Assembly (NCBI GenBank): GCA_016935975.1
Contig: JAFGPX010000259.1
Span: forward strand, 11,230-75,229
Source of the DNA: Deltaproteobacteria bacterium
GTDB lineage: Bacteria; Myxococcota_A; Polyangia; Fen-1088
Direction of reading: 5' to 3'
Length of the DNA: 64,000 bases
Numbering within the stretch: the stretch's first letter is position 1; every line of letters begins with the position of its first letter. The notes under the pieces were generated by a model. The model was not told the origin of the DNA. It did no database searches and saw only the letters and a program-made list of their open reading frames with translations. Made by a program: the position numbers and the translations under genes. This document shows, in pieces, positions 3,095-45,504 of this stretch.

Positions 3095-5463
<2,369 letters not shown>

Positions 5464-5570
5464 GACGCGGAGCCCGCGGAGGGCGCGGAGCGGGGAAGCG
5501 GAGGGTTCCATGTCCTGCTCCGGACCCTCTCCCGTCTCCGTGCTCTCTGGCTGCTCCGTGCCCTCGTGGT
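5464..5570. repeat. Palindromic intergenic element copy H (purine-rich arm / pyrimidine-rich arm hairpin), immediately after the clpA stop
   Basis: GACGCGGAGCCCGCGGAGGGCGCGGAGCGGGGAAGCGGAGGGTTCC-ATG-TCCTGCTCCGGACCCTCTCCCGTCTCCGTGCTCTCTGG. The arms are imperfect reverse complements and the right arm resembles copies C and E. Confidence 0.5.
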
Positions 5571-20316: not shown

Positions 20317-22701
20317 ATGCGAACAATACCCGGTTCACTCGTTTCGCTTCTCGTCCTTGCTCTCGTTCCCGCGGCTGTGTCGGCCCAGCCTGGCGGCACG
20401 ACGCCACCTCCGGCACCCTGGCCGCCGCCTGCGGCGGCACCGGCGTATCCCGCGCCGACCTATCCGGCTCCCTACCCGGCGTCCGCGTATCCGGCTCCCG
20501 CACCGGCGCCGGCTCCCGCACCGGCGCCGGCTCCTATCCCCGTCTATCCCGCGCCGGGTCCCGTTCCCGCCCCGGGTCCTGCTCCCGCGCCAGCGCCGGC
20601 GCTTGCTCCGTTTGAGGGCGGGGAACCGGATGCGGCCCCGGAGCCCGCCACAGCTCCGGCCGCGGCTCCTGTTCCGGCGCCGGCGCCCGCCGCTTTGGAG
20701 CCCGACGCCACAACCGTCGCGCCTTCGCCGGAGACGGCGATCTCCGAGTCCGACGAACGCCCGCGCGGTTTCGTGCCGCAACTCAGCCTGGGCGGCTCGG
20801 TCGGGCTTCTGCACATGGGCTCGGCCGACGTCGGCAATGTCGGCCAGCTTCGCGTGGGCCTCCACGGCGAGTATTTCACGGGCAGCAACTTCTTGGTCCA
20901 GAGCGAATCCCCGCCGGCAAGTGACCGGAACCGGCGGCTGCAAGGCGCGCTTGCCTTCGGGGTCACCCCCATCGAACACCTCGAGATCTTTGGCGCCGTC
21001 CTGGGTTCCGCGAACGAGAACCGTCGTCTGTGCAGCACCGACCTTTCCGGCCAAGAGGTCTGCGTCTCCGAGGCCAATCGCACCGATCCCGAGCTCATCA
21101 AGTCGTTCGGCGATCTCCTGCTGGGGGCCAAGTTGGCCTATGGCGTGGGTCCGGGATTCTCGGCGGGCGGTGAGCTGGGGGTGCGCATGATGTCCTCGAT
21201 CAACGGCATCTCCTTCTCTCCGGACTCGACCTCGTTCTGGGTCAATGCCCTGGGCGCCTACGATCTCAAGCCGGCTAGGGAGGACGTGCCCCTTCGCTTC
21301 CACATGAACCTCGGGTACTACGTCGACAATTCCCGATACCTCGTGGACTACGATGCCAACGGCACGTCGGCTTTTTCCCGCTACGTTTCCCAATTCGCCT
21401 ACGGCATCTCGGGCAGCCGCTTCCGCCTGGCGCTGGCCGCGGACGCTCCCTTGCACGAGCTGGCCGAGGGGTTCTCGCTGCGCCCGCTCGTCGAGTACCA
21501 CTTCGAGTACCTGACCAGTTCGCCCGACCCGGAGATCGACCGCCAGCAGCACGTGGTCGGGCTTTGCGGCCAGCCAGGCAACGAGGCCTGCAAGGACAAC
21601 AAGGATCAGCACTGGGTGACTCTCGGCGTGCAGGGACAGGTGTTGCACGGCTTGACCCTCACGGTCGGCGTTGACGTCGCCCTGCGTTCGCCCGGGTACG
21701 CCTACGGTCCGGCCCTTGCGCCGTGGAACCTGCTTTTCGGTCTCGGCTACGCCCTGGACCTGGTGCCGCGCATCGTGCGCCACGTCCCGGTCGAGAAGGT
21801 CGTCATCAAGGAAGCGGCCATAAGCGAGGGGCTGGTGGCGGGACGGGTGGTCAGCGCCGCGGGGACGCCGGTCGAGAATGCCATCGTGGGCGTGAGCGGG
21901 CGGCAGCACTCGCGCGTGGTGACGGAGGCGGATGGCTCGTTCCAGAGCGTGCCGCTCGCGCCCGGACCGGTCGAGCTGGTGGTCGTGGCCGACGGTTTCG
22001 AAAGCGCCACCATGCGGACCGAGGTCATTGCGGGGCAGACCGCCAACATCGTGCTTCGTCTCACCCCCAAGCCGCCGGCGGCCCGCGCCTCCGGACGGGT
22101 CAGCGACGATTCCGGCAAAGGCGTGGTGGCCACCATCAAGCTGGCGGGGCCGCAAATCGCCGAAGGCAAGTCGGACGAGTCGGGCAACTTCGCGATCCCG
22201 GTCGCGCCTGGGGTGTACACCCTGCGGGTCGATGCGCCCGGATTCCTGTCCAAGGAGAGCCAAGTGACGGTAGCCGACGGCCGCGAGGGTGGGGTCAGCA
22301 TCACCTTGCACACCCGGCCGGCCGTGGCTGGGGTGAGCTTCAAGGACGGCAAGTTCAAGCTGCGTCAGGCGGTCACTTTCAAGCGTGTGCGTGGCAAAGC
22401 GGGCCCCGAGTTGACGGCGGGAATGCCGCACTTGCTTGACGAGGTGGTGGACATCCTGGCAAACCACCCCGAGATCCGCCGGATTCGCGTGGAGGCGCAC
22501 TGGGACGGCGGAATCGCCGCTAGCAAGGCGCAGGCCCTGACCGAAGCGCAGGCCAAGGCCGTCGCGAAGTACCTCGTGGAGCAAGGCATTGCGCCCGAGC
22601 GCGTGGTCGCGGAAGGCATGGGCGCCAAGAAACCGATCGTGCCCAACCTGGGGAAGGGCAAGCTCAAGAACCGCCGCGTCGAGTTCGTGGTGGTGGAGTA
22701 G
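20317..22701 (+). CDS. OmpA-family outer-membrane protein with Pro/Ala-rich linker, carboxypeptidase-regulatory-like domains and C-terminal OmpA domain
   Basis: Signal peptide (LLVLALVPAAVSA), PAPAPAPAPAP low-complexity region, a beta-rich middle, two CarbopepD_reg-like segments (GRVVSAAGTPVENAIVGV..., GRVSDDSGKGVVATIKL...) and a C-terminal OmpA peptidoglycan-binding motif (NRRVEFVVVE). AGGAG Shine-Dalgarno upstream. Confidence 0.8.
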   Translation: MRTIPGSLVSLLVLALVPAAVSAQPGGTTPPPAPWPPPAAAPAYPAPTYPAPYPASAYPAPAPAPAPAPAPAPIPVYPAPGPVPAPGPAPAPAPALAPFEGGEPDAAPEPATAPAAAPVPAPAPAALEPDATTVAPSPETAISESDERPRGFVPQLSLGGSVGLLHMGSADVGNVGQLRVGLHGEYFTGSNFLVQSESPPASDRNRRLQGALAFGVTPIEHLEIFGAVLGSANENRRLCSTDLSGQEVCVSEANRTDPELIKSFGDLLLGAKLAYGVGPGFSAGGELGVRMMSSINGISFSPDSTSFWVNALGAYDLKPAREDVPLRFHMNLGYYVDNSRYLVDYDANGTSAFSRYVSQFAYGISGSRFRLALAADAPLHELAEGFSLRPLVEYHFEYLTSSPDPEIDRQQHVVGLCGQPGNEACKDNKDQHWVTLGVQGQVLHGLTLTVGVDVALRSPGYAYGPALAPWNLLFGLGYALDLVPRIVRHVPVEKVVIKEAAISEGLVAGRVVSAAGTPVENAIVGVSGRQHSRVVTEADGSFQSVPLAPGPVELVVVADGFESATMRTEVIAGQTANIVLRLTPKPPAARASGRVSDDSGKGVVATIKLAGPQIAEGKSDESGNFAIPVAPGVYTLRVDAPGFLSKESQVTVADGREGGVSITLHTRPAVAGVSFKDGKFKLRQAVTFKRVRGKAGPELTAGMPHLLDEVVDILANHPEIRRIRVEAHWDGGIAASKAQALTEAQAKAVAKYLVEQGIAPERVVAEGMGAKKPIVPNLGKGKLKNRRVEFVVVE
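20395..20700 (+). repeat. Pro-Ala coding low-complexity tandem repeats (CCGGCGCCGGCTCCCGCA units) inside the ompA-like gene
   Basis: Direct visual repeats encoding (PA)n / PAPGP. Confidence 0.6.
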
Positions 22702-22712
22702 GTAGCGTCGGC

Positions 22713-22962
22713 GAGGAAGTCCGTAGAGGGCGCCAGAGGGGGACGAGGGCGCAGAGGCCGGAGCGGATTGCCGCACCGGCCTCGGGAGCCGTGGGGGACA
22801 AAACGGGGTCGTGGCCGCGGTCGCCAACGTCTACGGCCACGGTCACGTAGACGTCCACGACCAGCCATAGGGCGACGCCCACGGCCAGGTTCACGACGTC
22901 GCGCGGGACTCGGGGCCGGCCGCTCTGTGCCCTCGTCCCCCTCTGCGACCTCTACCCTTCCT
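22713..22962. repeat. Palindromic element copy G: about 250 bp with ~47-bp terminal inverted repeats
   Basis: Left TIR GAGGAAGTCCGTAGAGGGCGCCAGAGGGGGACGAGGGCGCAGAGGCCGG; the reverse complement of the right TIR is AGGAAGGGTAGAGGTCGCAGAGGGGGACGAGGGCACAGAGCGGCCGG (about 90% identical). It fills the whole gap between the convergent ompA and exbD genes, and its right end overlaps the exbD stop. Confidence 0.65.
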
Positions 22963-23536
22963 ATTCGCGTGACTTCAATACGAGCAGTCGGTAGTTCGCG
23001 TACTCGGCTTGGCCACACGAATACAGGACCTCGGTCAGCAGCCGATAGGGTGTGTTCCGATCCGCGATGATGGTCAACTCGCCTTCGAACTTCTGCCCGC
23101 TCATCTCCGCGATCTTCTTCTCCCGTCGGGCCACCTTGGACAGCGTTTCCACGAGCGGCGTGATGTAGTAGCCGTTGTCGCCGTCGCGCTTGAGCTGCGG
23201 ATCGATGCGCCCGTTGGTGATGGGCGCCACGGCGTCGCCCTCGACCAGCAGGACCCGCTTGGTGATGGTCACCGGCACCGCTTGCTTGGGTGCCAGCTGC
23301 GTCATCGACGGCGGCAGCATCAGGTTCTGGTCCATGTTCACGATCTCTGCCGACGAGGTGAAGCTCTTGAGCAAGAAGACCAGGATGATGGTCATCATGT
23401 CCATCATCGGGGTGATGTTCAGGTCCTTGATGTCCTCGGGCTCGGCCAGCTTGCGCGCGTAGCTGCGAATGGCCTTTTTTCCGGCAAGCCGGGCAGCCCA
23501 GGGGGAGGCAGGTTTCGCGCCGTCGGTTGCCATCAC
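22961..23536 (-). CDS. exbD: ExbD/TolR family biopolymer transport protein
   Basis: Single TM helix (MMDMMTIILVFLL) and periplasmic ExbD fold. Its start overlaps the stop of the upstream exbD paralog (GTGATG), suggesting translational coupling. Confidence 0.8.
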   Translation of the reverse strand: MMATDGAKPASPWAARLAGKKAIRSYARKLAEPEDIKDLNITPMMDMMTIILVFLLKSFTSSAEIVNMDQNLMLPPSMTQLAPKQAVPVTITKRVLLVEGDAVAPITNGRIDPQLKRDGDNGYYITPLVETLSKVARREKKIAEMSGQKFEGELTIIADRNTPYRLLTEVLYSCGQAEYANYRLLVLKSRE

Positions 23537-24060
23537 AAGATACCCGCCGCGAACACGACGTCCGGGAAGAGCGCCTTTTCTCGCTGGTCCTTCTCGTCCT
23601 TGTAGATGCGCATGGCGTCCAGCGTCTTGACCACGGTGTCGTAGGGCGTGATCGCGTCGGCGTTGAAAGTAGCTTTGGTTTCGTCCGAGAACTCTTTCTT
23701 GATCTCGGTGAGCTTCGCGGTCAACGCGGTGTAGTCATAGTCGCCAGAAGGTAGCTTGGGAATGGGGGGCATGACGCCACCCGAGCCGGCCAGGGTGAAG
23801 CCGCTCTGCCCCACCGTCACGGTGAGGTTGAGGGCGGGTTTTTCCTGCTGGTCGCCGCCGCCACCGCCCCCGAAGGTCGGCGAGGACACGTTCACGGTGC
23901 CGAGCGGCACCTGGTTTATGACCGAGGCCAGCAAGAAGATGATGATGTTGGTGACGATGTCCATGTAGGGAACGAGGTTGATCTCGCCGGTTTCTTCCTC
24001 GGCTTCCTCGAACTCGGCCCGCATGCGCCGCATGCGGGCCCGTACCTGGCGTTTGGTCAT
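23533..24060 (-). CDS. exbD: ExbD/TolR family biopolymer transport protein (second paralog)
   Basis: TM helix (PYMDIVTNIIIFLLA), Gly-rich linker and ExbD periplasmic domain. Confidence 0.8.
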   Translation of the reverse strand: MTKRQVRARMRRMRAEFEEAEEETGEINLVPYMDIVTNIIIFLLASVINQVPLGTVNVSSPTFGGGGGGDQQEKPALNLTVTVGQSGFTLAGSGGVMPPIPKLPSGDYDYTALTAKLTEIKKEFSDETKATFNADAITPYDTVVKTLDAMRIYKDEKDQREKALFPDVVFAAGIL

Positions 24061-24090: not shown

Positions 24091-24735
24091 CTACTTCTGC
24101 TGCACTCCGGCCCCGTGCGCGGATTCCGCCAGGAGGTTCTCCAACTTGAGTGAAAAGGCCTCGAGATCCGCGGTCTGGCGCTTCGACATCGAGCCCAAGA
24201 TGGCGTGCGCGACGATGCAGGTCACGGCGATGCCGAGACCCATGGCGGTGTTGTTGAGCGCCTCGGAAATACCTCGGGCCAGCAGGTTGCTGCGCTCCTC
24301 GGGCTTGGCGGCCGCGACCGCGCCGAAGGCCCGGATGAGGCCGACGACCGTGCCCAGCAGACCGATGAGGGTCGCGATATTGGCCAGAGACCAGAGAATC
24401 TGGATGCGCTTCTTGATCATCGGAGTCACGTCCACCAGCGCCTCTTCGATGGCCTGGGCCACGGCAATCTCGCCGCGATGAAAGCGCTGGAGTCCCGCCT
24501 TGGCGACCTGCGCAACGGGAGCGGTGGTGGCCGAACAGAGCTTCACGGCTCGATCGAGGTTGTTGGCGAGCACGAGCTTGCGGATGTTCTCGAGGAAGGC
24601 CCGCGCGTTGACGCTGCTCTTGACCAGGAAGAAGAGCAAGCGGTCGACGATGAACGACAGCACGATGACCGACACCAGCAGGTTGAAGTACATGAGGGTT
24701 CCACCCTCTTCCAGGAACTTGGCGAATCCTTGCAT
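24091..24735 (-). CDS. exbB: MotA/TolQ/ExbB proton-channel protein
   Basis: Three TM helices; conserved TolQ/ExbB C-terminal region (ISEALNNTAMGLGIAVTCIVAHAIL). The track ORF extends to 25092, but the first 119 aa are R/P/S-rich; the Met preceding the first TM helix is at 24735. Confidence 0.8.
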   Translation of the reverse strand: MQGFAKFLEEGGTLMYFNLLVSVIVLSFIVDRLLFFLVKSSVNARAFLENIRKLVLANNLDRAVKLCSATTAPVAQVAKAGLQRFHRGEIAVAQAIEEALVDVTPMIKKRIQILWSLANIATLIGLLGTVVGLIRAFGAVAAAKPEERSNLLARGISEALNNTAMGLGIAVTCIVAHAILGSMSKRQTADLEAFSLKLENLLAESAHGAGVQQK

Positions 24736-24983
24736 CTCATCCTCCGCGGGCGTCTTGAGCCCGCCAGAGCCATCCCGCATGCGGGCTCGGCGGAAAGCGA
24801 CTTTGGTCTCCTCGGGATCCCGTGTTACGGGGCGGTATCTTATAGGTGGGCCTTGGCGTGTCAAGCGAGGTGCATGCGGGCTATCCCGGCGAAATCGGCT
24901 GCGAAGCCCAGAGCGATGCGCGTGTGAAGGCGTCCGCTTTTGTGCCGGCAAGTCCGATTTCCCCGGGTATTCTTCACCGGCCG

Positions 24984-28272: not shown

Positions 28273-29106
28273 CTACCTTGCCAGGAGATGGCTTCCGTGC
28301 ACGTTGCCGAGCGCGGCGAGCATGGTTTGGCGTACGTGGGGGTATTCGACCTCGAGGCGGTCGAGCAACAGCTTGATTTGCTTGCGTTGAGCTTGCGGGC
28401 GTACATCGCACAGCCGGCACGGCAGGAGGGGCACCCTGTGGCGGGCGGCCAACTCCGCCAGGTCGCTTGCCGCGCAGTAGATGAGCGGCCGGATGACCAC
28501 ATGTCGGCGGTCGTCACTGGTCAGACGGGCGGGCATCGCCGCGAGCTTGCCCGCGAAGAAGAGATTGAGGAGCAGGGTTTCCACGGCATCGTCACGGTGG
28601 TGGCCGAGCGCCACCTTGGTGCAGCCGAGATCGTCGGCCACACGGTAGAGAATCGCTCGGCGCAGACGGGCGCACAGTGAGCAGGGCGTCTGCTGCTCGG
28701 CCAGGGTGGCCTTTACGATGCCGTAGGTGTCTTCGCGCACGAGCTTGTGCTCGAAGCCTTGTGCTGCGAGCCACGCCAGAAGCGGCGCCGGATCATGTCC
28801 CGGGTGTCCCTGATCGAGGTGTACCGCGACCAGGCCGAAGGACACTGGTGCGCGTCGGCGCATGGCTTCCAGCAGCAGGAGCAGGGCATAGCTGTCCTTG
28901 CCGCCCGACAGCGCCACCAGGATGCGGTCGCCCGCCGCGATGAGGTCGAAGTCCGCGATGGCCCGCCCCACGTCGTGCAGCAGACGTTTCTTCACCACAG
29001 AGGGTGGGGAGGACACGGAGGGCGGAGGGAAAGGGGGATCCGGATCCGCGCCCTTCCCCTTTCTGTGCTCTCCGTGCTCTCTGTGCTCTCTGTGGTGCAA
29101 GGACAC
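28273..29106 (-). CDS. ttcA: tRNA 2-thiocytidine(32) synthetase TtcA (PP-loop ATPase)
   Basis: Collinear with E. coli TtcA (KRLLHDVGRAIADF..., PP-loop SGGKDS, CxxC pairs). The 5' ~35 codons (HREHREHGEH..., PFPPP) overlap repeat copy E. The track start is GTG; an in-frame GTG at about 28998 is an alternative true start. Confidence 0.75.
   Translation of the reverse strand: MSLHHREHREHGEHRKGKGADPDPPFPPPSVSSPPSVVKKRLLHDVGRAIADFDLIAAGDRILVALSGGKDSYALLLLLEAMRRRAPVSFGLVAVHLDQGHPGHDPAPLLAWLAAQGFEHKLVREDTYGIVKATLAEQQTPCSLCARLRRAILYRVADDLGCTKVALGHHRDDAVETLLLNLFFAGKLAAMPARLTSDDRRHVVIRPLIYCAASDLAELAARHRVPLLPCRLCDVRPQAQRKQIKLLLDRLEVEYPHVRQTMLAALGNVHGSHLLAR
28995..29095. repeat. Palindromic element copy E, with a GGATCCGGATCC centre
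   Basis: CCACAGAGGGTGGGGAGGACACGGAGGGCGGAGGGAAAGGGGGATCCGGATCCGCGCCCTTCCCCTTTCTGTGCTCTCCGTGCTCTCTGTGCTCTCTGTGG. The termini CCACAGAG / CTCTGTGG are inverted repeats. Confidence 0.6.
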
Positions 29107-29185
29107 TATTCACCCGGTTGGCAGAGGGGGATAGGGCGCTAGAATAGTGTGCGAGGCCCGGGCGTGCTAGAGCCGAGGGGTCGGC

Positions 29186-30371
29186 ATGATCAGCGAAGCC
29201 AGAACAGGACAGCCAAGACGCACTTCCCTCGTGCGCTGGGTTCTGCTCGCGCTCATCATCCACGCGGAGATCGGCGGCTTGCTCGGCATCGCGCTGTATT
29301 TCTGGGCGCCCCGGCAGGCCGAGGTCGAAGCCAAACGACGCGAGGCCATGGCGAGCGCCGAGCCGATTTCGGTCAGCACGCTCGACGACGAAACCGCACG
29401 CAAGATCATCGCCGACCTCGAGCGTCAGGAAGAGAAGGCCAAGCTGGCGGAGGCGAAGAAGGAGGAAGAGTCGGTTCGTGCGCCCGGGCAAGTCGTCGAC
29501 TTGCCCCGTCCGCGGGAGGAGCGGCGTCCCGACGAGGCGCGCTTTGCCGCCGAATACGACTCGTGGGTCGAGAAGGAAACCAGGCGCTACGGCAAGTTCG
29601 ATCCGAATTCGCAGCAGCGCCACAGCGGTCCGAGCGACGCAAGGCGACGCAACCAGCCCGAGCTGACGCCCAACCCATCCGAGATCCCGGCTTCCCCCGG
29701 ACCCCTCGCCATGCGTATGCCCGGCGAGGAGAGGCGGCTGGCGCGGTCCCGCTCCGACAAGATGTCGCCGTGGCACGAGACGCCGAGCAGCGACGAGCCG
29801 CTGCCGGAAGATCCGGACGGTGTCTTCTCGCGCAAGGGAGGGGGCAACGCCACGCCGGCTCCGTCCGAGCGCGCCGAGGAGGAAAGCGGTGGCCGGCCCG
29901 GGCTCTACGGTCTGGTGCCGTCCGAGGAGCAGATTGCGCGCGCCGTGGGCAGCGGCACGCAGGACCACCTCGCCGATATCGACGAAGGCGACGAAACCGC
30001 TCTTAACGCCAAGCGCTGGGTCTACGCCACCTTTTTCAACCGCGTCAAAGAGAAGGTGCGCGATCACTGGAAGCCGGCGGAGGTGTACCAACGGCGCGAT
30101 CCCTCGGGTCGCATCTACGGCACCGAGGATCGCTACACCCTCCTCAAGGTCAGCCTCAAGGCCGACGGCTCGCTGGCCGACGTCTCGGTCGCCCATACCT
30201 GCGGGCTCGACTTTCTCGACGATACCGCGGTTACCGCCTTCCAAGAGGCACAGCCGTTCATCAACCCCCCCCGCCGCCTGCTCGAGGCCGGAGGCGGCAC
30301 GGTCACCTTCGGCTTCGGTTTCTTCTTCGAGGTGTCGGGCGCCCCCCGCCTGCGCCTGTTCCGCTACCGAT

Positions 30372-43062: not shown

Positions 43063-44337
43063 ATGGCGATTTCGCCGCGCCTCGTGAGGATCCTGCGCGA
43101 CATCTCCGCGGAGATCCTGGAGGCGCAGAAACCTCTCCGCATGATTCGTGCGTTGGACTGGCCGCCGGAGGTCGCGCGGGACTTCTTCGCCCGCGGCGCG
43201 GTCGTGCTACCCAAGCCGAGCTACGACGTTCCGGCCGGAGTCGGGGATGCGCTGGCGGCTTTCCGGGCACTGTCGCGCCGGCTCGTCGGCGAGAACGAGA
43301 TCGAGCGCTTTCTCTACCGGACATGCGACTCGATGTCGACCGCAGCGCGCATGCTGCTGGCCATCGGCACCCGGGACTTCTACCACCACTCGGTCGAGCT
43401 GTATGGCCATCCCGCCGGGCTCTCGTCGGATCGGCGCACGACCAACCTCGATCTCGCCCGGCACTTCGAGCAGGTGGTGGCGAGCTTCAAATCGCCTCCT
43501 TCACCCGAAGACCAAGCCATGCTGGGTGCGGAGGCCGCGGCGGGCATTCTGCGCGAGCGCTTCGCCGAGTGCTTTCCCGGGCATCCCGTGAAGGTGAAGG
43601 TGGTCAAGCATCTCGCGGGCACGGCCGCGAGCACGCCCACGGAGATCCGCCTTCGGCGCGATGCTCGCTTCTCGCCGCGCGATTTGCGCCTGCTCGAATT
43701 TCACGAGGGCCAGGTGCATATGGCCACCTCGATCAACGGCCGCGCCCAACCCGTCATGGCGTTCATCGGCGCGCCTTCGCCGCGCGCTACGCGCACCCAG
43801 GAGGGCCTGGCCGTTTTCACCGAGTTCGTCACCGGCGCGACCAGCCTGCCGCGCGTTCGGCGCTTGTGCGACCGGACCTTCGCCATCCATGCGGCGGAAG
43901 GCGGCGCCGACTTCGTCGATCTCTACCGTTTCTTCGTCGAGCGCGGATACGACGAGCACGCGGCTTTCGACTGCGCCCGGCGCGTGGTGCGCGGCGGACT
44001 GGTCGGGGGAGGGGCGCCCTTCACGAAGGACGGCTGCTATCTCGATGGTCTTCTGCGCGTGACCAACTTCTTGCGCGCCGCTTTGACCCGCGGGCACAGC
44101 CAACTGGTCAGGCTGCTCTTCGCGGGCAAGCTGGCGGTCGACGACACGCCGCTTTTCGATCGTCTGGCGCGCGAGGGTCTGGTCGCCGAGCCGGTCTATG
44201 TGCCCGCCTGGGCCAGGGATCTGTCGTTTCTGACCGCCTTCATGAGCTACACCGTTTTCCTCGGCAAGAGCGACCTTCTGGCCGAGCAACGCCGTTTGGA
44301 GGACCAGCTGGCGCGCGCCGAGGAGGACTTCCAGTAG
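43063..44337 (+). CDS. DUF1704 'QEGLA-motif' family protein (flavohemoglobin-expression-modulating protein family)
   Basis: Contains the family-defining RTQEGLAVFTEF motif. The track ORF 42109..44337 is the same frame, but its first 318 codons overlap cysE in a different frame, so it is trimmed to the first ATG after cysE. Confidence 0.6.
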   Translation: MAISPRLVRILRDISAEILEAQKPLRMIRALDWPPEVARDFFARGAVVLPKPSYDVPAGVGDALAAFRALSRRLVGENEIERFLYRTCDSMSTAARMLLAIGTRDFYHHSVELYGHPAGLSSDRRTTNLDLARHFEQVVASFKSPPSPEDQAMLGAEAAAGILRERFAECFPGHPVKVKVVKHLAGTAASTPTEIRLRRDARFSPRDLRLLEFHEGQVHMATSINGRAQPVMAFIGAPSPRATRTQEGLAVFTEFVTGATSLPRVRRLCDRTFAIHAAEGGADFVDLYRFFVERGYDEHAAFDCARRVVRGGLVGGGAPFTKDGCYLDGLLRVTNFLRAALTRGHSQLVRLLFAGKLAVDDTPLFDRLAREGLVAEPVYVPAWARDLSFLTAFMSYTVFLGKSDLLAEQRRLEDQLARAEEDFQ

Positions 44338-44340
44338 GAC

Positions 44341-44470
44341 GGGTACGGTGGGAAGGGCGGAGCGCACAGAGGGGACAGGGAGGGCGCGGGGAGGGAAAGC
44401 GCCGGGTTTGGCGAGAGCTACGCCTTACCCGGCTCAGCGCTCTCCGCTCGCTCTGCGCCCTCTCCGGTCC
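44341..44470. repeat. Palindromic element copy F (degenerate); its pyrimidine arm runs into the 3' end of lipA
   Basis: GGGAAGGGCGGAGCGCACAGAGGGGACAGGGAGGGCGCGGGGAGGGAAAGCGCC... then GCTCTCCGCTCGCTCTGCGCCCTCTCCGG inside the lipA C-terminal codons. It resembles the TIR of copy G. Confidence 0.4.
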
Positions 44471-45504
44471 AGCACGAGCGGGTGTTGGCTGGAGGCGTGG
44501 TAGCTCGAGCGCACCAGCGGTCCGGATTCCACGTGAGCGAAGCCCAGGGCCAGGGCTTCGTCCTTGAGCGCGGCAAATTCCGCGGGCGTCACGTAGCGCT
44601 CGACGGGTAGGTGCTGGCGCGAGGGCCGCAGGTATTGGCCCAGGGTCAGGATCTCGACGCCCGCGCGGCGCAGATCGCGCATGGTGGCGCGGATCTCGTC
44701 GAGGGTTTCGCCCAGGCCCAACATGAGGCCGCTCTTGGTCAGGGCGCCTCGCGCTCCGGCGTGGTCCAACACGCGCAGCGAGCGCTCGACGTCGGCTTGC
44801 ACGCGCACCGTGCGACAGAGGCGCGGCACGGTTTCCAGGTTGTGGGCGAAGACGTCGGGAGCGGCGTCGAGCACGACGTCCACCGCGGCCGTGTCGCCCC
44901 GGAAGTCGCTGACCAGGGCTTCCAGCACCAGATGGGGGCAGCGCGCCTTGACGGCGCGAATGGTGCTGGCCCAGTGGGCGGCGCCGCCGTCCGCGAGGTC
45001 GTCGCGGGTCACGCAGGTGATCATCGTGTACGCCAGGTCGAGCTCGGCCAGCGCGGTTGCCACGCGCTCGGGCTCGCCGGGGTCCGGGGGCAGGGGCCGG
45101 CCCGTGGGCACGTCGCAGAACTGGCACGAGCGCGTGCACAGCCCGCCCAGGATCATGATGGTCAAGGATTTCTCGCCCCAGCATTCCCCGATGTTGGGGC
45201 AGGAGGCGCTTTCGCAGACCGTGTGCAGGCCGAGAGTATGCACGCGCTCGCGCAGGTCGAAGTACGTCCGGCTGGCAGGCAGGCGCGCGCGGATCCAGGG
45301 CGGATGGCGCGGGCGCGCTTGCGCGGCCGCCTCGGACTGGCCCAGGACGCGCAGGCGCCGCGACCGGGTATCGACCATGGATCGCACGAGGGAAATCTGC
45401 GCCATTCCGAGGTGGATGTCGATGGCGGATCTGCGTCTTCCCGGCGCAATGGCCTGGGTTTCTTGACCGCCTGCTATGATGGGGCGCCTCATGCAGAGGA
45501 CCAT
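44434..45504 (-). CDS. lipA: Lipoyl synthase
   Basis: Radical-SAM and auxiliary cluster motifs (CESASCPNIGECWG, CTRSCQFCDV) and collinearity with LipA. The N-terminal limit is uncertain (several in-frame Met); the C-terminal ~12 aa are encoded by repeat F's arm. Confidence 0.85.
   Translation of the reverse strand: MVLCMRRPIIAGGQETQAIAPGRRRSAIDIHLGMAQISLVRSMVDTRSRRLRVLGQSEAAAQARPRHPPWIRARLPASRTYFDLRERVHTLGLHTVCESASCPNIGECWGEKSLTIMILGGLCTRSCQFCDVPTGRPLPPDPGEPERVATALAELDLAYTMITCVTRDDLADGGAAHWASTIRAVKARCPHLVLEALVSDFRGDTAAVDVVLDAAPDVFAHNLETVPRLCRTVRVQADVERSLRVLDHAGARGALTKSGLMLGLGETLDEIRATMRDLRRAGVEILTLGQYLRPSRQHLPVERYVTPAEFAALKDEALALGFAHVESGPLVRSSYHASSQHPLVLDRRGRRASGER

What the first reader, a model, noticed from the sequence alone, without database searches (positions are those of the whole stretch)
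22713..22962. Long-TIR member of the palindromic family filling the whole ompA-exbD convergent gap
A 250-bp element carries ~47-bp terminal inverted repeats that are about 90% identical (core CAGAGGGGGACGAGGGCGCAGAG). They flank a ~160-bp unique core that contains only a low-quality 76-aa ORF.

The right TIR overlaps the exbD stop codon. This looks like a non-autonomous transposable element (MITE), or the full-length progenitor of the shorter copies.
Basis: seen in the sequence. Interest (0 to 1): 0.6.

Follow-up and report, generated by a model that had tools for sequence, protein, structure and literature searches.

The report
Long hairpin repeat between convergent genes
The gap between two genes that face each other is filled by a 249-base palindrome whose arms are copies of a 34-base repeat found between genes in many uncultured myxobacteria. 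It looks like an old, locally evolving RNA hairpin at the ends of both genes, not a recently inserted jumping element.

Summary
Bases 22714-22760 and 22919-22962 are inverted repeats, with 42 matches, a 23-nt core differing at one base, and 0 of 100 shuffles matching. The ompA-like/exbD gap folds at -165 kcal/mol (z = -7.8), and the right arm overlaps the exbD stop codon by 2 nt.

The MITE or progenitor reading is not supported:
- There are no target-site duplications.
- The 158-nt core has no second copy in any sequence I could reach.
- The 76-aa ORF has no homologue among 5.8 billion proteins.
- Every orthologous gap from related metagenomic genomes is also 220-322 nt, never empty.
- Those gaps carry homologous pieces of the arm (L042, L043) or of the inner core (L045).

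Each arm contains a sharply bounded 34-nt unit, GGAGAGRGCRCAGAGGGGGACGAGRGCRCAGAGG. This unit recurs at non-orthologous intergenic sites in other uncultured Myxococcota, always in the order purine arm then pyrimidine arm. The inserts between the arms are unrelated and range from 14 to about 370 nt. One recurrent insert is a GxxExxY (PDDEXK_3) gene between comM and recA.

Best reading: a vertically inherited, module-built palindromic spacer. It works like REP/BIME or rRNA intervening-sequence stems, as an RNA 3'-end hairpin (inferred). How the unit spreads or is conserved is unexplained.

The parts
22714..22760 (+). Left arm, purine-rich on the + strand. It has a 13-nt outer extension (AGGAAGTCCGTAG...) followed by the family unit and GGCCGG.
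22724..22758 (+). Copy of the 34-nt family unit: two GAGRGCRCAGAGG modules joined by GGGAC. This copy has one extra C in the outer module.
   Evidence: nhmmer with a profile of 15 units, score 25.4; unit boundaries
22734..22756 (+). 23-nt core CAGAGGGGGACGAGGGCGCAGAG. It pairs with 22923-22945 with one G/A difference, which gives a G.U pair in the + strand RNA.
22754..22783 (.). Inner hairpin with a 13-bp stem (GAGGCCGGAGCGG / CCGCACCGGCCTC) and a 4-nt loop.
   Evidence: (I4)
22761..22918 (.). Core of 158 nt. It is itself a degenerate palindrome made of nested hairpins and hexamer-periodic GTSGYC/GRCSAC repeats. It is single-copy.
22803..22862 (.). Inner hairpin block (I3 and I5). It is homologous to the near-perfect hairpin in the orthologous gap of L045-47, so it is inherited at this site.
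   Evidence: (score 45 against a null maximum of 24)
22919..22962 (-). Right arm, pyrimidine-rich on the + strand. Its last 2 nt lie in the exbD stop codon. The family unit is at 22922-22955.
   Evidence: (score 32.1)
22664..22894 (-). 76-aa ORF, judged not to be a gene.
   Evidence: No Pfam match. No homologue among 5.8 billion proteins. No conserved frame in the orthologous gaps. Its codon-like GC periodicity is explained by the hexamer repeats.
20317..22701 (+). Upstream convergent gene: an OmpA-domain protein with CarboxypepD_reg repeats. Its TAG stop lies 12 nt before the left arm.
22961..23536 (-). Downstream convergent gene: exbD, the last gene of an exbB-exbD-exbD operon (24091..24801, 23533..24060).
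5455..5570 (.). Family member. The purine arm starts at the TAG stop of a ClpA/B-type AAA+ gene, and the pyrimidine arm is followed by TTTTTG.
28990..29101 (.). Family member built of 9-nt GAGAGCACA units. It abuts the GTG start of a PP-loop (TtcA-like) gene in a divergent gap.
44338..44470 (.). Family member in the convergent gap between a MATCAP-family gene and lipoyl synthase. Its pyrimidine arm overlaps the last codons of lipA.

Best explanation
The 249-bp element is a vertically inherited palindromic spacer that evolves in place. Its arms are copies of a lineage-wide 34-nt purine-rich repeat (two GAGRGCRCAGAGG modules plus GGGAC). It is not a recently transposed MITE.

Transcribed from either side, it gives the same kind of RNA. 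A stem of roughly 40 bp, purine arm 5' and pyrimidine arm 3', starts 12 nt past the stop codon of the ompA-like gene and inside that of exbD. The stem closes a 160-nt structured loop.

The most likely role is a two-way 3'-end structure that insulates the two convergent operons. It could stop or stall read-through transcription, block 3' exonucleases, or offer a long double-stranded stem for RNase III. REP/BIME hairpins and the stems of 23S rRNA intervening sequences work this way.

Shown here: the anatomy, membership of the repeat family, inheritance at this site, and the absence of MITE hallmarks. Inferred: the RNA-level function. Unknown: how the unit is kept so similar at unrelated sites.

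Inheritance at this site:
- Ten orthologous exbD/ompA-like gaps are all 220-322 nt.
- L043 has the unit directly after the exbD stop, matching 48 of 57 aligned positions. Four-fold synonymous sites in exbD match at only 53-62%.
- L042 has 49-nt arms of the same module type.
- The L045 hairpin is homologous to window 22804-22862.

A termination role for this gap:
- The closest relatives (L034, L035, L036) carry a canonical two-way terminator hairpin here, with an A run and a T run.
- Family member 5455-5570 ends in TTTTTG.
- Family units abut stop codons at most sites.

Constraint on arms but not loops:
- At the orthologous L005/L031 site the arms are at least 88-94% identical.
- The 85-101-nt loop there is unalignable, and the neighbouring intergenic DNA is about 80% identical.

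Double changes that keep pairing:
- GGGGG has become GGCGG on both arms of L042.
- C has become G on both arms of L058.

Precedent:
- The Coxiella 23S intervening sequence is a 428-nt element with a 28-bp terminal stem (-143 kcal/mol). It is cut by RNase III within the stem (PMC4990558).
Against: - The outer stem is followed by no U run on either strand, so it is not a canonical intrinsic terminator.
- No transcript data exist for this organism.
- A purely structural role does not explain why the arm sequence itself is nearly identical at unrelated loci in different organisms, nor why arm mismatches show no strand preference.
- The closest ortholog (L034, 92% ExbD identity) manages without a long inverted repeat (z = -0.9), so the long stem is not indispensable.
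- One family member (28990-29101) sits in a divergent, 5' gap.
Confidence: 0.55

Rival explanations
1. It is a non-autonomous mobile element. In this reading the 34-nt units are the terminal inverted repeats of a hairpin-bounded cassette whose gene-carrying form holds a PD-(D/E)XK GxxExxY gene. The window element is then a gene-less relative, either mobilised in trans or a relic of such an insertion.
For: - The unit has sharp boundaries and a consensus shared by non-orthologous sites in different organisms.
- All 8 independent paired loci have the same polarity, with the purine arm outside-left.
- The same arms enclose unrelated inserts of 14 to about 370 nt.
- The arms enclose a GxxExxY gene in L006, L023, L050 and L058.
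- 78 of 120 GxxExxY homologues carry arm-derived N-terminal extensions.
- One unit lies inside the NuoC C-terminal tail, as if inserted there.
- L042 and L043 differ abruptly in the outer arm despite identical ExbD proteins.
Against: - No target-site duplications were found in 7 pairs.
- The window core is single-copy and shows no trace of a GxxExxY gene.
- All sampled GxxExxY cassettes with these arms sit at one conserved locus, comM-recA, which points to vertical inheritance rather than transposition.
- No empty orthologous site exists.
- The exact 20-mer occurs at only one locus per genome in 185,579 representative genomes.
- No transposase was seen.
Confidence: 0.25
2. It is a neutral by-product with no function. 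In this reading the palindrome arose by inverted duplication or template switching in a long, unconstrained convergent spacer. It is kept symmetrical by arm-to-arm gene conversion and by slippage among short purine modules.
For: - The palindromy extends beyond the family unit both outward (AGGAAG..GTAG) and inward.
- L042 has a tandem 50-nt duplication, and one family member has 9-nt unit expansions.
- The region turns over rapidly between strains with identical ExbD.
- The long inverted repeat is absent in the closest ortholog.
Against: - It does not explain the 34-nt consensus shared with unrelated loci and organisms.
- It does not explain arm conservation above synonymous-site identity.
Confidence: 0.1
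3. It acts at the DNA level. In this reading the paired 13-nt modules are binding sites for a protein (nucleoid, recombination or regulatory), or the palindrome extrudes as a cruciform.
For: - The sequence itself is conserved, not just the pairing.
- At the variable module positions only A/G changes are seen, regardless of the partner arm.
- The direct-repeat module structure has an 18-nt period.
Against: - No candidate protein is known, and nothing at the locus suggests one.
- The elements are placed tightly against stop codons, which fits transcripts better than DNA sites.
Confidence: 0.07
4. The core encodes a small protein: the 76-aa ORF on the exbD strand, or a shorter valine-rich peptide.
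For: - GC content in the core is three-periodic (0.83/0.49/0.85) in the frame of the ORF.
- Valine-rich hydrophobic stretches appear in the same strand of several orthologous gaps.
Against: - There is no Pfam match and no homologue among 5.8 billion proteins.
- Frames, lengths and stop positions are not conserved among orthologs.
- The ORF overlaps the ompA-like gene by 38 nt.
- The periodicity follows from GTSGYC hexamer repeats that also form the hairpin.
Confidence: 0.03

Closest known systems
REP / BIME elements and REPINs of enterobacteria and pseudomonads
   Same: They are short intergenic repeats, often in inverted pairs that form RNA hairpins at the 3' ends of genes. They are inherited vertically and persist for a long time in a lineage (REPIN papers listed). 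Their roles in mRNA stabilisation and termination are known from the E. coli literature (my own knowledge).
   Different: - The 34-nt unit here is a purine-rich tandem of two modules, not itself a palindrome.
- Spacers between paired units vary from 14 to about 370 nt and are unrelated, whereas a REPIN moves as one unit with a fixed spacer.
- The exact unit has a very low copy number per genome.
- No RAYT transposase was examined.
MITEs such as Correia/NEMIS and ERIC
   Same: They have terminal inverted repeats of a few tens of bases around a short non-coding core, lie between genes, and can act as RNase III or terminator hairpins.
   Different: This element has no target-site duplication, no family-wide conserved core, no empty sites and no parent IS.
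Intervening sequences of 23S rRNA (for example Coxiella burnetii, PMC4990558)
   Same: A long terminal inverted repeat forms a very stable stem (-143 kcal/mol there, -165 here) that closes a loop of a few hundred nt. That loop may carry a small ORF. The stem is an RNase III substrate. The origin of these elements as mobile DNA is suspected but unproven.
   Different: The window element is not in rRNA and carries no ORF. Its gene-carrying relatives hold a GxxExxY (PF13366) gene rather than S23p. RNase III cleavage was not tested.
Bidirectional intrinsic terminators between convergent genes
   Same: A symmetric GC-rich hairpin fills a convergent gap and abuts both stop codons. Orthologous gaps L034-L036 contain a canonical terminator of this type.
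   Different: No A or U runs flank the outer stem. The stem is far longer than needed, and its sequence belongs to a dispersed family.
Rickettsia palindromic elements (from my own knowledge)
   Same: They are palindromic repeats that can sit inside coding regions and add peptide segments. The unit in the NuoC tail of L003 resembles this.
   Different: There is no sequence relation. The window copy is intergenic.

Membership tests
MITE | Terminal inverted repeats | tested here: met
   The arms are about 47 and 44 nt with 42 matches.
MITE | Target-site duplication flanking the repeats | tested here: not met
   The flanks are gtcggcg|...|attcgcg with no direct repeat. None was found at six other paired elements either.
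MITE | Several copies sharing the internal sequence | tested here: not met
   The core is unique in the window and in all 58 fetched loci except the orthologous site. Only 64 kb of the source genome is available.
MITE | Parent element with the same repeats around a transposase | tested here: inconclusive
   None was found in the window or in the 32 loci holding the arm 20-mer. The full source genome was not available.
MITE | Presence/absence polymorphism at orthologous sites | tested here: not met
   All orthologous gaps are 220-322 nt and partly homologous. No empty site was found.
REP/BIME/REPIN | A unit that is itself an imperfect palindrome | tested here: not met
   The unit is purine-rich with two direct modules.
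REP/BIME/REPIN | High intergenic copy number | tested here: inconclusive
   The window holds four loose family hairpins in 64 kb. The exact 20-mer occurs at only one locus per representative genome.
REP/BIME/REPIN | Inverted doublet with conserved spacer (REPIN) | tested here: not met
   Spacers are 14, 27, 83, 101, 158, 345 and 368 nt and are unrelated.
REP/BIME/REPIN | Cognate RAYT transposase in the genome | not testable with these tools
   Only a 64-kb window of the source genome is available.
Intrinsic bidirectional terminator | GC-rich hairpin just after the stop codons of both convergent genes | tested here: met
Intrinsic bidirectional terminator | U run after the stem on each transcript | tested here: not met
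   No terminator-like site was found in the gap. The only run is an internal GUUUUG on the - strand RNA, 22796-22801 on the + strand.
Intrinsic bidirectional terminator | Transcript 3' ends at the hairpin | not testable with these tools
   No transcript data exist.
23S rRNA intervening-sequence-type hairpin cassette | Long terminal stem closing a loop of hundreds of nt | tested here: met
   compared with PMC4990558.
23S rRNA intervening-sequence-type hairpin cassette | Small ORF in the loop | tested here: not met
   The 76-aa ORF was rejected. There is no GxxExxY remnant. Relatives L006, L023, L050 and L058 do carry one.
23S rRNA intervening-sequence-type hairpin cassette | RNase III cleavage in the stem | not testable with these tools
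   This needs an experiment.
Any Rfam family | Match to a curated covariance model | tested here: not met
   There are no matches at gathering score in the whole window. Only chance-level hits appear in 22600-23060.

The most novel reading that the evidence does not exclude
The 34-nt purine/pyrimidine unit pairs define an undescribed class of hairpin-bounded cassettes in Myxococcota, and by the look of the flanks of distant GxxExxY genes, in other phyla too. The gene-carrying form would encode the PD-(D/E)XK GxxExxY nuclease. Gene-less forms such as the window element would be its non-autonomous or relic derivatives. This would give GxxExxY proteins a function in homing or maintenance of hairpin elements. 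It would also link them mechanistically to the unexplained intervening sequences of 23S rRNA.
Probability: 0.15. Interest if true: 0.75.

Novelty: new variant of a known kind. Interest (0 to 1): 0.4.

Why it matters
On its own the element is an ordinary kind of thing: a dispersed palindromic intergenic repeat that probably shapes the 3' ends of transcripts.

Two points go beyond that. First, the arm sequence is held almost constant across different uncultured myxobacteria while everything between the arms is free to change. That calls for a sequence-specific factor or a copying mechanism not yet known in this phylum. Second, the same arms bracket GxxExxY nuclease-fold genes. This gives a testable handle on a very large protein family of unknown function, and on the origin of hairpin-bounded inserts such as the rRNA intervening sequences.

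There is also a practical consequence. Gene callers read through these arms and deposit proteins with artefactual 'AEGTEGEEGTE' N-termini and 'SVPSSPSVPS' C-termini.

Tried and rejected
- **Source genome:** exact look-up of the window's ExbD found nothing on record. The best relatives are 92% identical and metagenomic, so no strain-level comparison was possible.
- **Rfam:** no match at gathering score over the whole window and only chance-level hits at relaxed thresholds.
- **Promoter and terminator scan of the gap:** nothing found.
- **BLAST of the element against plasmids and phages:** no match.
- **76-aa ORF as a gene:** rejected, with no Pfam match, no homologue and no conserved frame.
- **Core as a decayed GxxExxY gene:** rejected. 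blastx hits touch only the arms, and tblastn finds no GxxExxY gene in the window.
- **Shorter family members as deletion derivatives of this element:** rejected.
- **Target-site duplications:** none.
- **Strand bias of G.U-compatible mismatches, as a test of RNA-level against DNA-level selection:** no preference, so uninformative.
- **Mobility of GxxExxY cassettes, tested by looking for different genomic contexts:** all retrieved copies sit at the same comM-recA locus, so there is no evidence of movement.
- **Literature searches on myxobacterial repeats and on GxxExxY proteins:** no description of this family found.
- **CRISPR repeat and retron a1/a2 repeats:** considered and dropped, because the units are inverted rather than direct and there is no reverse transcriptase or array.

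Full report
**1. The observation**

The window is high-GC DNA, 64-70%. Its ExbD is closest to metagenomic proteins, and the only named hit among those listed is from a 'Polyangia bacterium'. The source genome itself is in none of the collections.

An OmpA-domain gene (20317..22701 +) and the last exbD of an exbB-exbD-exbD operon (22961..23536 -) face each other across a 259-nt gap.
- The 23-nt core lies at 22734-22756 and 22923-22945 and differs at one base. It is found nowhere else in the window, with 0.00 expected by chance.
- Gapped alignment extends the arms to 22714-22760 and 22919-22962, with 42 matches.
- Weaker palindromy continues inward to 22795 and 22878.
- The gap folds as one closed hairpin: -164.8 kcal/mol (z = -7.8) on the + strand and -155.4 kcal/mol (z = -6.6) on the - strand.
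- The right arm ends inside the exbD stop codon.

**2. The arms belong to a real family with a sharply bounded unit**

Each arm is two copies of GAGRGCRCAGAGG joined by GGGAC. Module clusters on both strands mark four hairpins in the window: 5455-5570, 22714-22962, 28990-29101 and 44338-44470. Dinucleotide shuffles gave 0 or 1 such clusters.

I scanned the 185,579 species-representative genomes and the metagenome collection for the arm 20-mer. The scans returned 32 loci. About 14 distinct loci share a 34-nt unit, GGAGAGRGCRCAGAGGGGGACGAGRGCRCAGAGG, and similarity stops abruptly at both of its ends.

The outer module of this unit was not part of the search pattern, so its conservation is independent evidence for the unit. 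The units lie between genes and usually abut a stop codon. The exceptions are one copy inside the alanine/proline/serine/threonine-rich C-terminal tail of NuoC (L003/L010) and a lone match in a planctomycete coding region (L004), which is probably chance.

Where two units are paired, the order is always purine arm then pyrimidine arm. This holds at 8 independent loci. As a result, the transcript of either strand has the purine arm 5'. The sequences between paired arms are unrelated and range from 14 to about 370 nt.

**3. It is not a classical MITE, nor the progenitor of the shorter copies**

- No direct repeats flank the element or six other pairs.
- The 158-nt core has no second copy in the window or in 273 kb of fetched loci. 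The only hits are the orthologous site and a simple GTGGCC/GTGGTC repeat.
- The shorter hairpins in the window share nothing with this core beyond chance.
- The 76-aa ORF has no Pfam match, no homologue among 5.8 billion proteins and no conserved frame in orthologous gaps. Its codon-like GC periodicity comes from hexamer repeats that also build the inner hairpins.
- No Rfam family matches.
- Nothing similar is present in the plasmid or phage collections.

**4. The element has been inherited at this site**

I fetched orthologous loci through ExbD homologues of 85-92% identity. Gene order is conserved in all of them, and the gap is always 220-322 nt, never empty. The gaps compare with the window as follows:
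- L043 carries the family unit immediately after the exbD stop. It matches the window's right arm at 48 of 57 aligned positions, whereas four-fold synonymous sites of exbD match at only 53-62%.
- L042 has 49-nt arms of the same module type and a 50-nt tandem duplication.
- L044 has one module on each strand.
- L045-47 have a near-perfect inner hairpin homologous to window 22804-22862.
- The closest relatives, L034-L036, lack a long inverted repeat (z = -0.6 to -0.9). Instead they hold a canonical two-way terminator hairpin, AAGGGCTCGGACTTCGGTCCGGGCCCTTTTT.

The region is also dynamic. L042 and L043 encode identical ExbD proteins and are about 96% identical in the 3' part of exbD. Yet the first 25 nt or so after the stop codon cannot be aligned between them.

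**5. The arms are constrained and the loops are not**

L005 and L031 are orthologous sites downstream of a sigma-54 activator gene. There the two arms are about 88-94% identical, the 85-101-nt loop is unalignable, and the intergenic DNA just downstream is about 80% identical.

Some changes are present on both arms and so preserve pairing: GGCGG in L042, and G at position 18 in L058. Most arm-to-arm mismatches are A/G transitions (19 of 24), with no strand preference. This analysis therefore cannot separate selection at the RNA level from selection at the DNA level.

**6. An unexpected link to a gene family**

In L006 and L023 the same arms enclose a 123-aa PD-(D/E)XK GxxExxY gene (PF13366, E = 5e-41). 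Homologues of that protein in public data are typically called with two extensions. At the N-terminus they carry 'AAEGTEGEEGTE', which is the purine arm translated. At the C-terminus they read through as 'SSVPSSPSVPS', which is the pyrimidine arm translated. By a rough motif count, 78 and 67 of the top 120 homologues show these.

More distant homologues carry 'FTTESTEGTE' and 'SVPSVVKNS'. These correspond to the termini of the window hairpin 28990-29101.

All contigs fetched for these proteins place the cassette at one conserved locus between comM and recA. The link therefore shows that such arms bracket a gene over long evolutionary times. It does not show that the cassette moves. The window contains no GxxExxY gene or remnant.

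**7. Mechanism**

The reading I commit to is that the element is the current state of an old, fast-evolving palindromic spacer. Its arms are kept close to a lineage-wide consensus. It acts on the transcripts of both convergent operons as a long 3' hairpin, by blocking read-through, protecting against exonucleases, and/or being processed by RNase III.

Support comes from four observations:
- The element is placed against both stop codons.
- Canonical terminators occupy the same gap in relatives.
- Family member 5455-5570 has a U run after its pyrimidine arm.
- There is a close structural parallel with the RNase III-cleaved stems of 23S intervening sequences (PMC4990558).

All of this is inference, because no transcript data exist. 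The absence of U runs at the outer stem and the sequence-level conservation of the unit are not explained by structure alone.

The main rival, at about 0.25, is that the units are ends of a hairpin-bounded mobile cassette related to the GxxExxY genes. Neutral palindrome growth, a DNA-binding site and a small protein are less likely.

**8. Comparison with known systems, and novelty**

The element works like REP/BIME hairpins, MITE-derived terminators and intervening-sequence stems, but it fails defining tests for each:
- For a MITE, it has no target-site duplication, no shared core and no empty site.
- For REP/REPIN, the unit is not palindromic and the spacer is not fixed.
- For an intrinsic terminator, the outer stem has no U run.
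- For an intervening sequence, it has no ORF and is not in rRNA.

I found no description of this family in the searchable literature. I rate it a new variant of a known kind and of moderate interest. The window element itself is ordinary in role. The conserved 34-nt unit and its association with GxxExxY genes are the parts worth following.

Noticed in passing
L006 272-709; L023 2917-3349; L050 and L058 around 1500-1990: A GxxExxY (PF13366) gene sits inside a hairpin made of the same purine and pyrimidine arms, at a conserved locus between comM (Mg-chelatase-like) and recA. This is seen in many metagenomic contigs.
   Followed up: partly
Proteins P0121-P0194 (homologues of the L006 gene): Gene callers read through the hairpin arms. 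As a result, public GxxExxY proteins carry artefactual N-termini such as AAEGTEGEEGTE or FTTESTEGTE, and C-termini such as SSVPSSPSVPS or SVPSVVKNS.
   Followed up: partly
window 28990-29101: This family hairpin is built of 9-nt GAGAGCACA units and lies in a divergent gap. It directly abuts the GTG start (28995) of a PP-loop/TtcA-like gene. Its centre, AAAGGGGGATCCGGATCCGCGCCCTT, resembles the terminator hairpins of L034, L036 and L044.
   Followed up: partly
window 44338-44470: This family hairpin lies between a MATCAP-family gene and lipoyl synthase. Its pyrimidine arm overlaps the last 12 or so codons of the lipA ORF (44434..45504 -).
   Followed up: partly
L003 2942-3060 and L010 851-960: One family unit plus a (GTGGCC/GTGGTC)n repeat lies inside the alanine/proline/serine/threonine-rich C-terminal tail of NuoC, just before nuoD. 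It looks as if an element has been absorbed into coding sequence.
   Followed up: partly
L042 4074-4110 compared with L043 786-815; L042 4254-4353: Two contigs encode identical ExbD proteins, yet the first 25 nt or so after the stop codon are unalignable between them. L042 also has a 50-nt tandem duplication of the ompA-side arm. This points to rapid restructuring of the arms.
   Followed up: partly
L034 1179-1212; L036 about 4206-4245: The orthologous gap in the closest relatives holds a canonical bidirectional intrinsic terminator: a GGGCCCGGAC/GTCCGAGCCC stem flanked by A and T runs.
   Followed up: yes
window 22699-22701, 22961-22963, 5461-5463, 44335-44337; L005, L025, L031, L043: The stop codon next to the purine arm is TAG at most sites, often as GTAG or TAGGA. 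TAG is usually the rarer stop codon in high-GC genomes (my own knowledge). I did not test whether the element supplies or selects the stop codon.
   Followed up: no
L005 7483-7500 and L031 (reverse) 2140-2157: A conserved palindrome, TTGCCAAATTGGCA, lies immediately after the hairpin downstream of a sigma-54 activator gene. It may be a regulator binding site.
   Followed up: no
window 29123-29146: GCAGAGGGGGATAGGGCGCTAGAAT resembles the arm core and ends in a -10-like TAGAAT, about 40 nt upstream of the ORF that starts at 29186.
   Followed up: no
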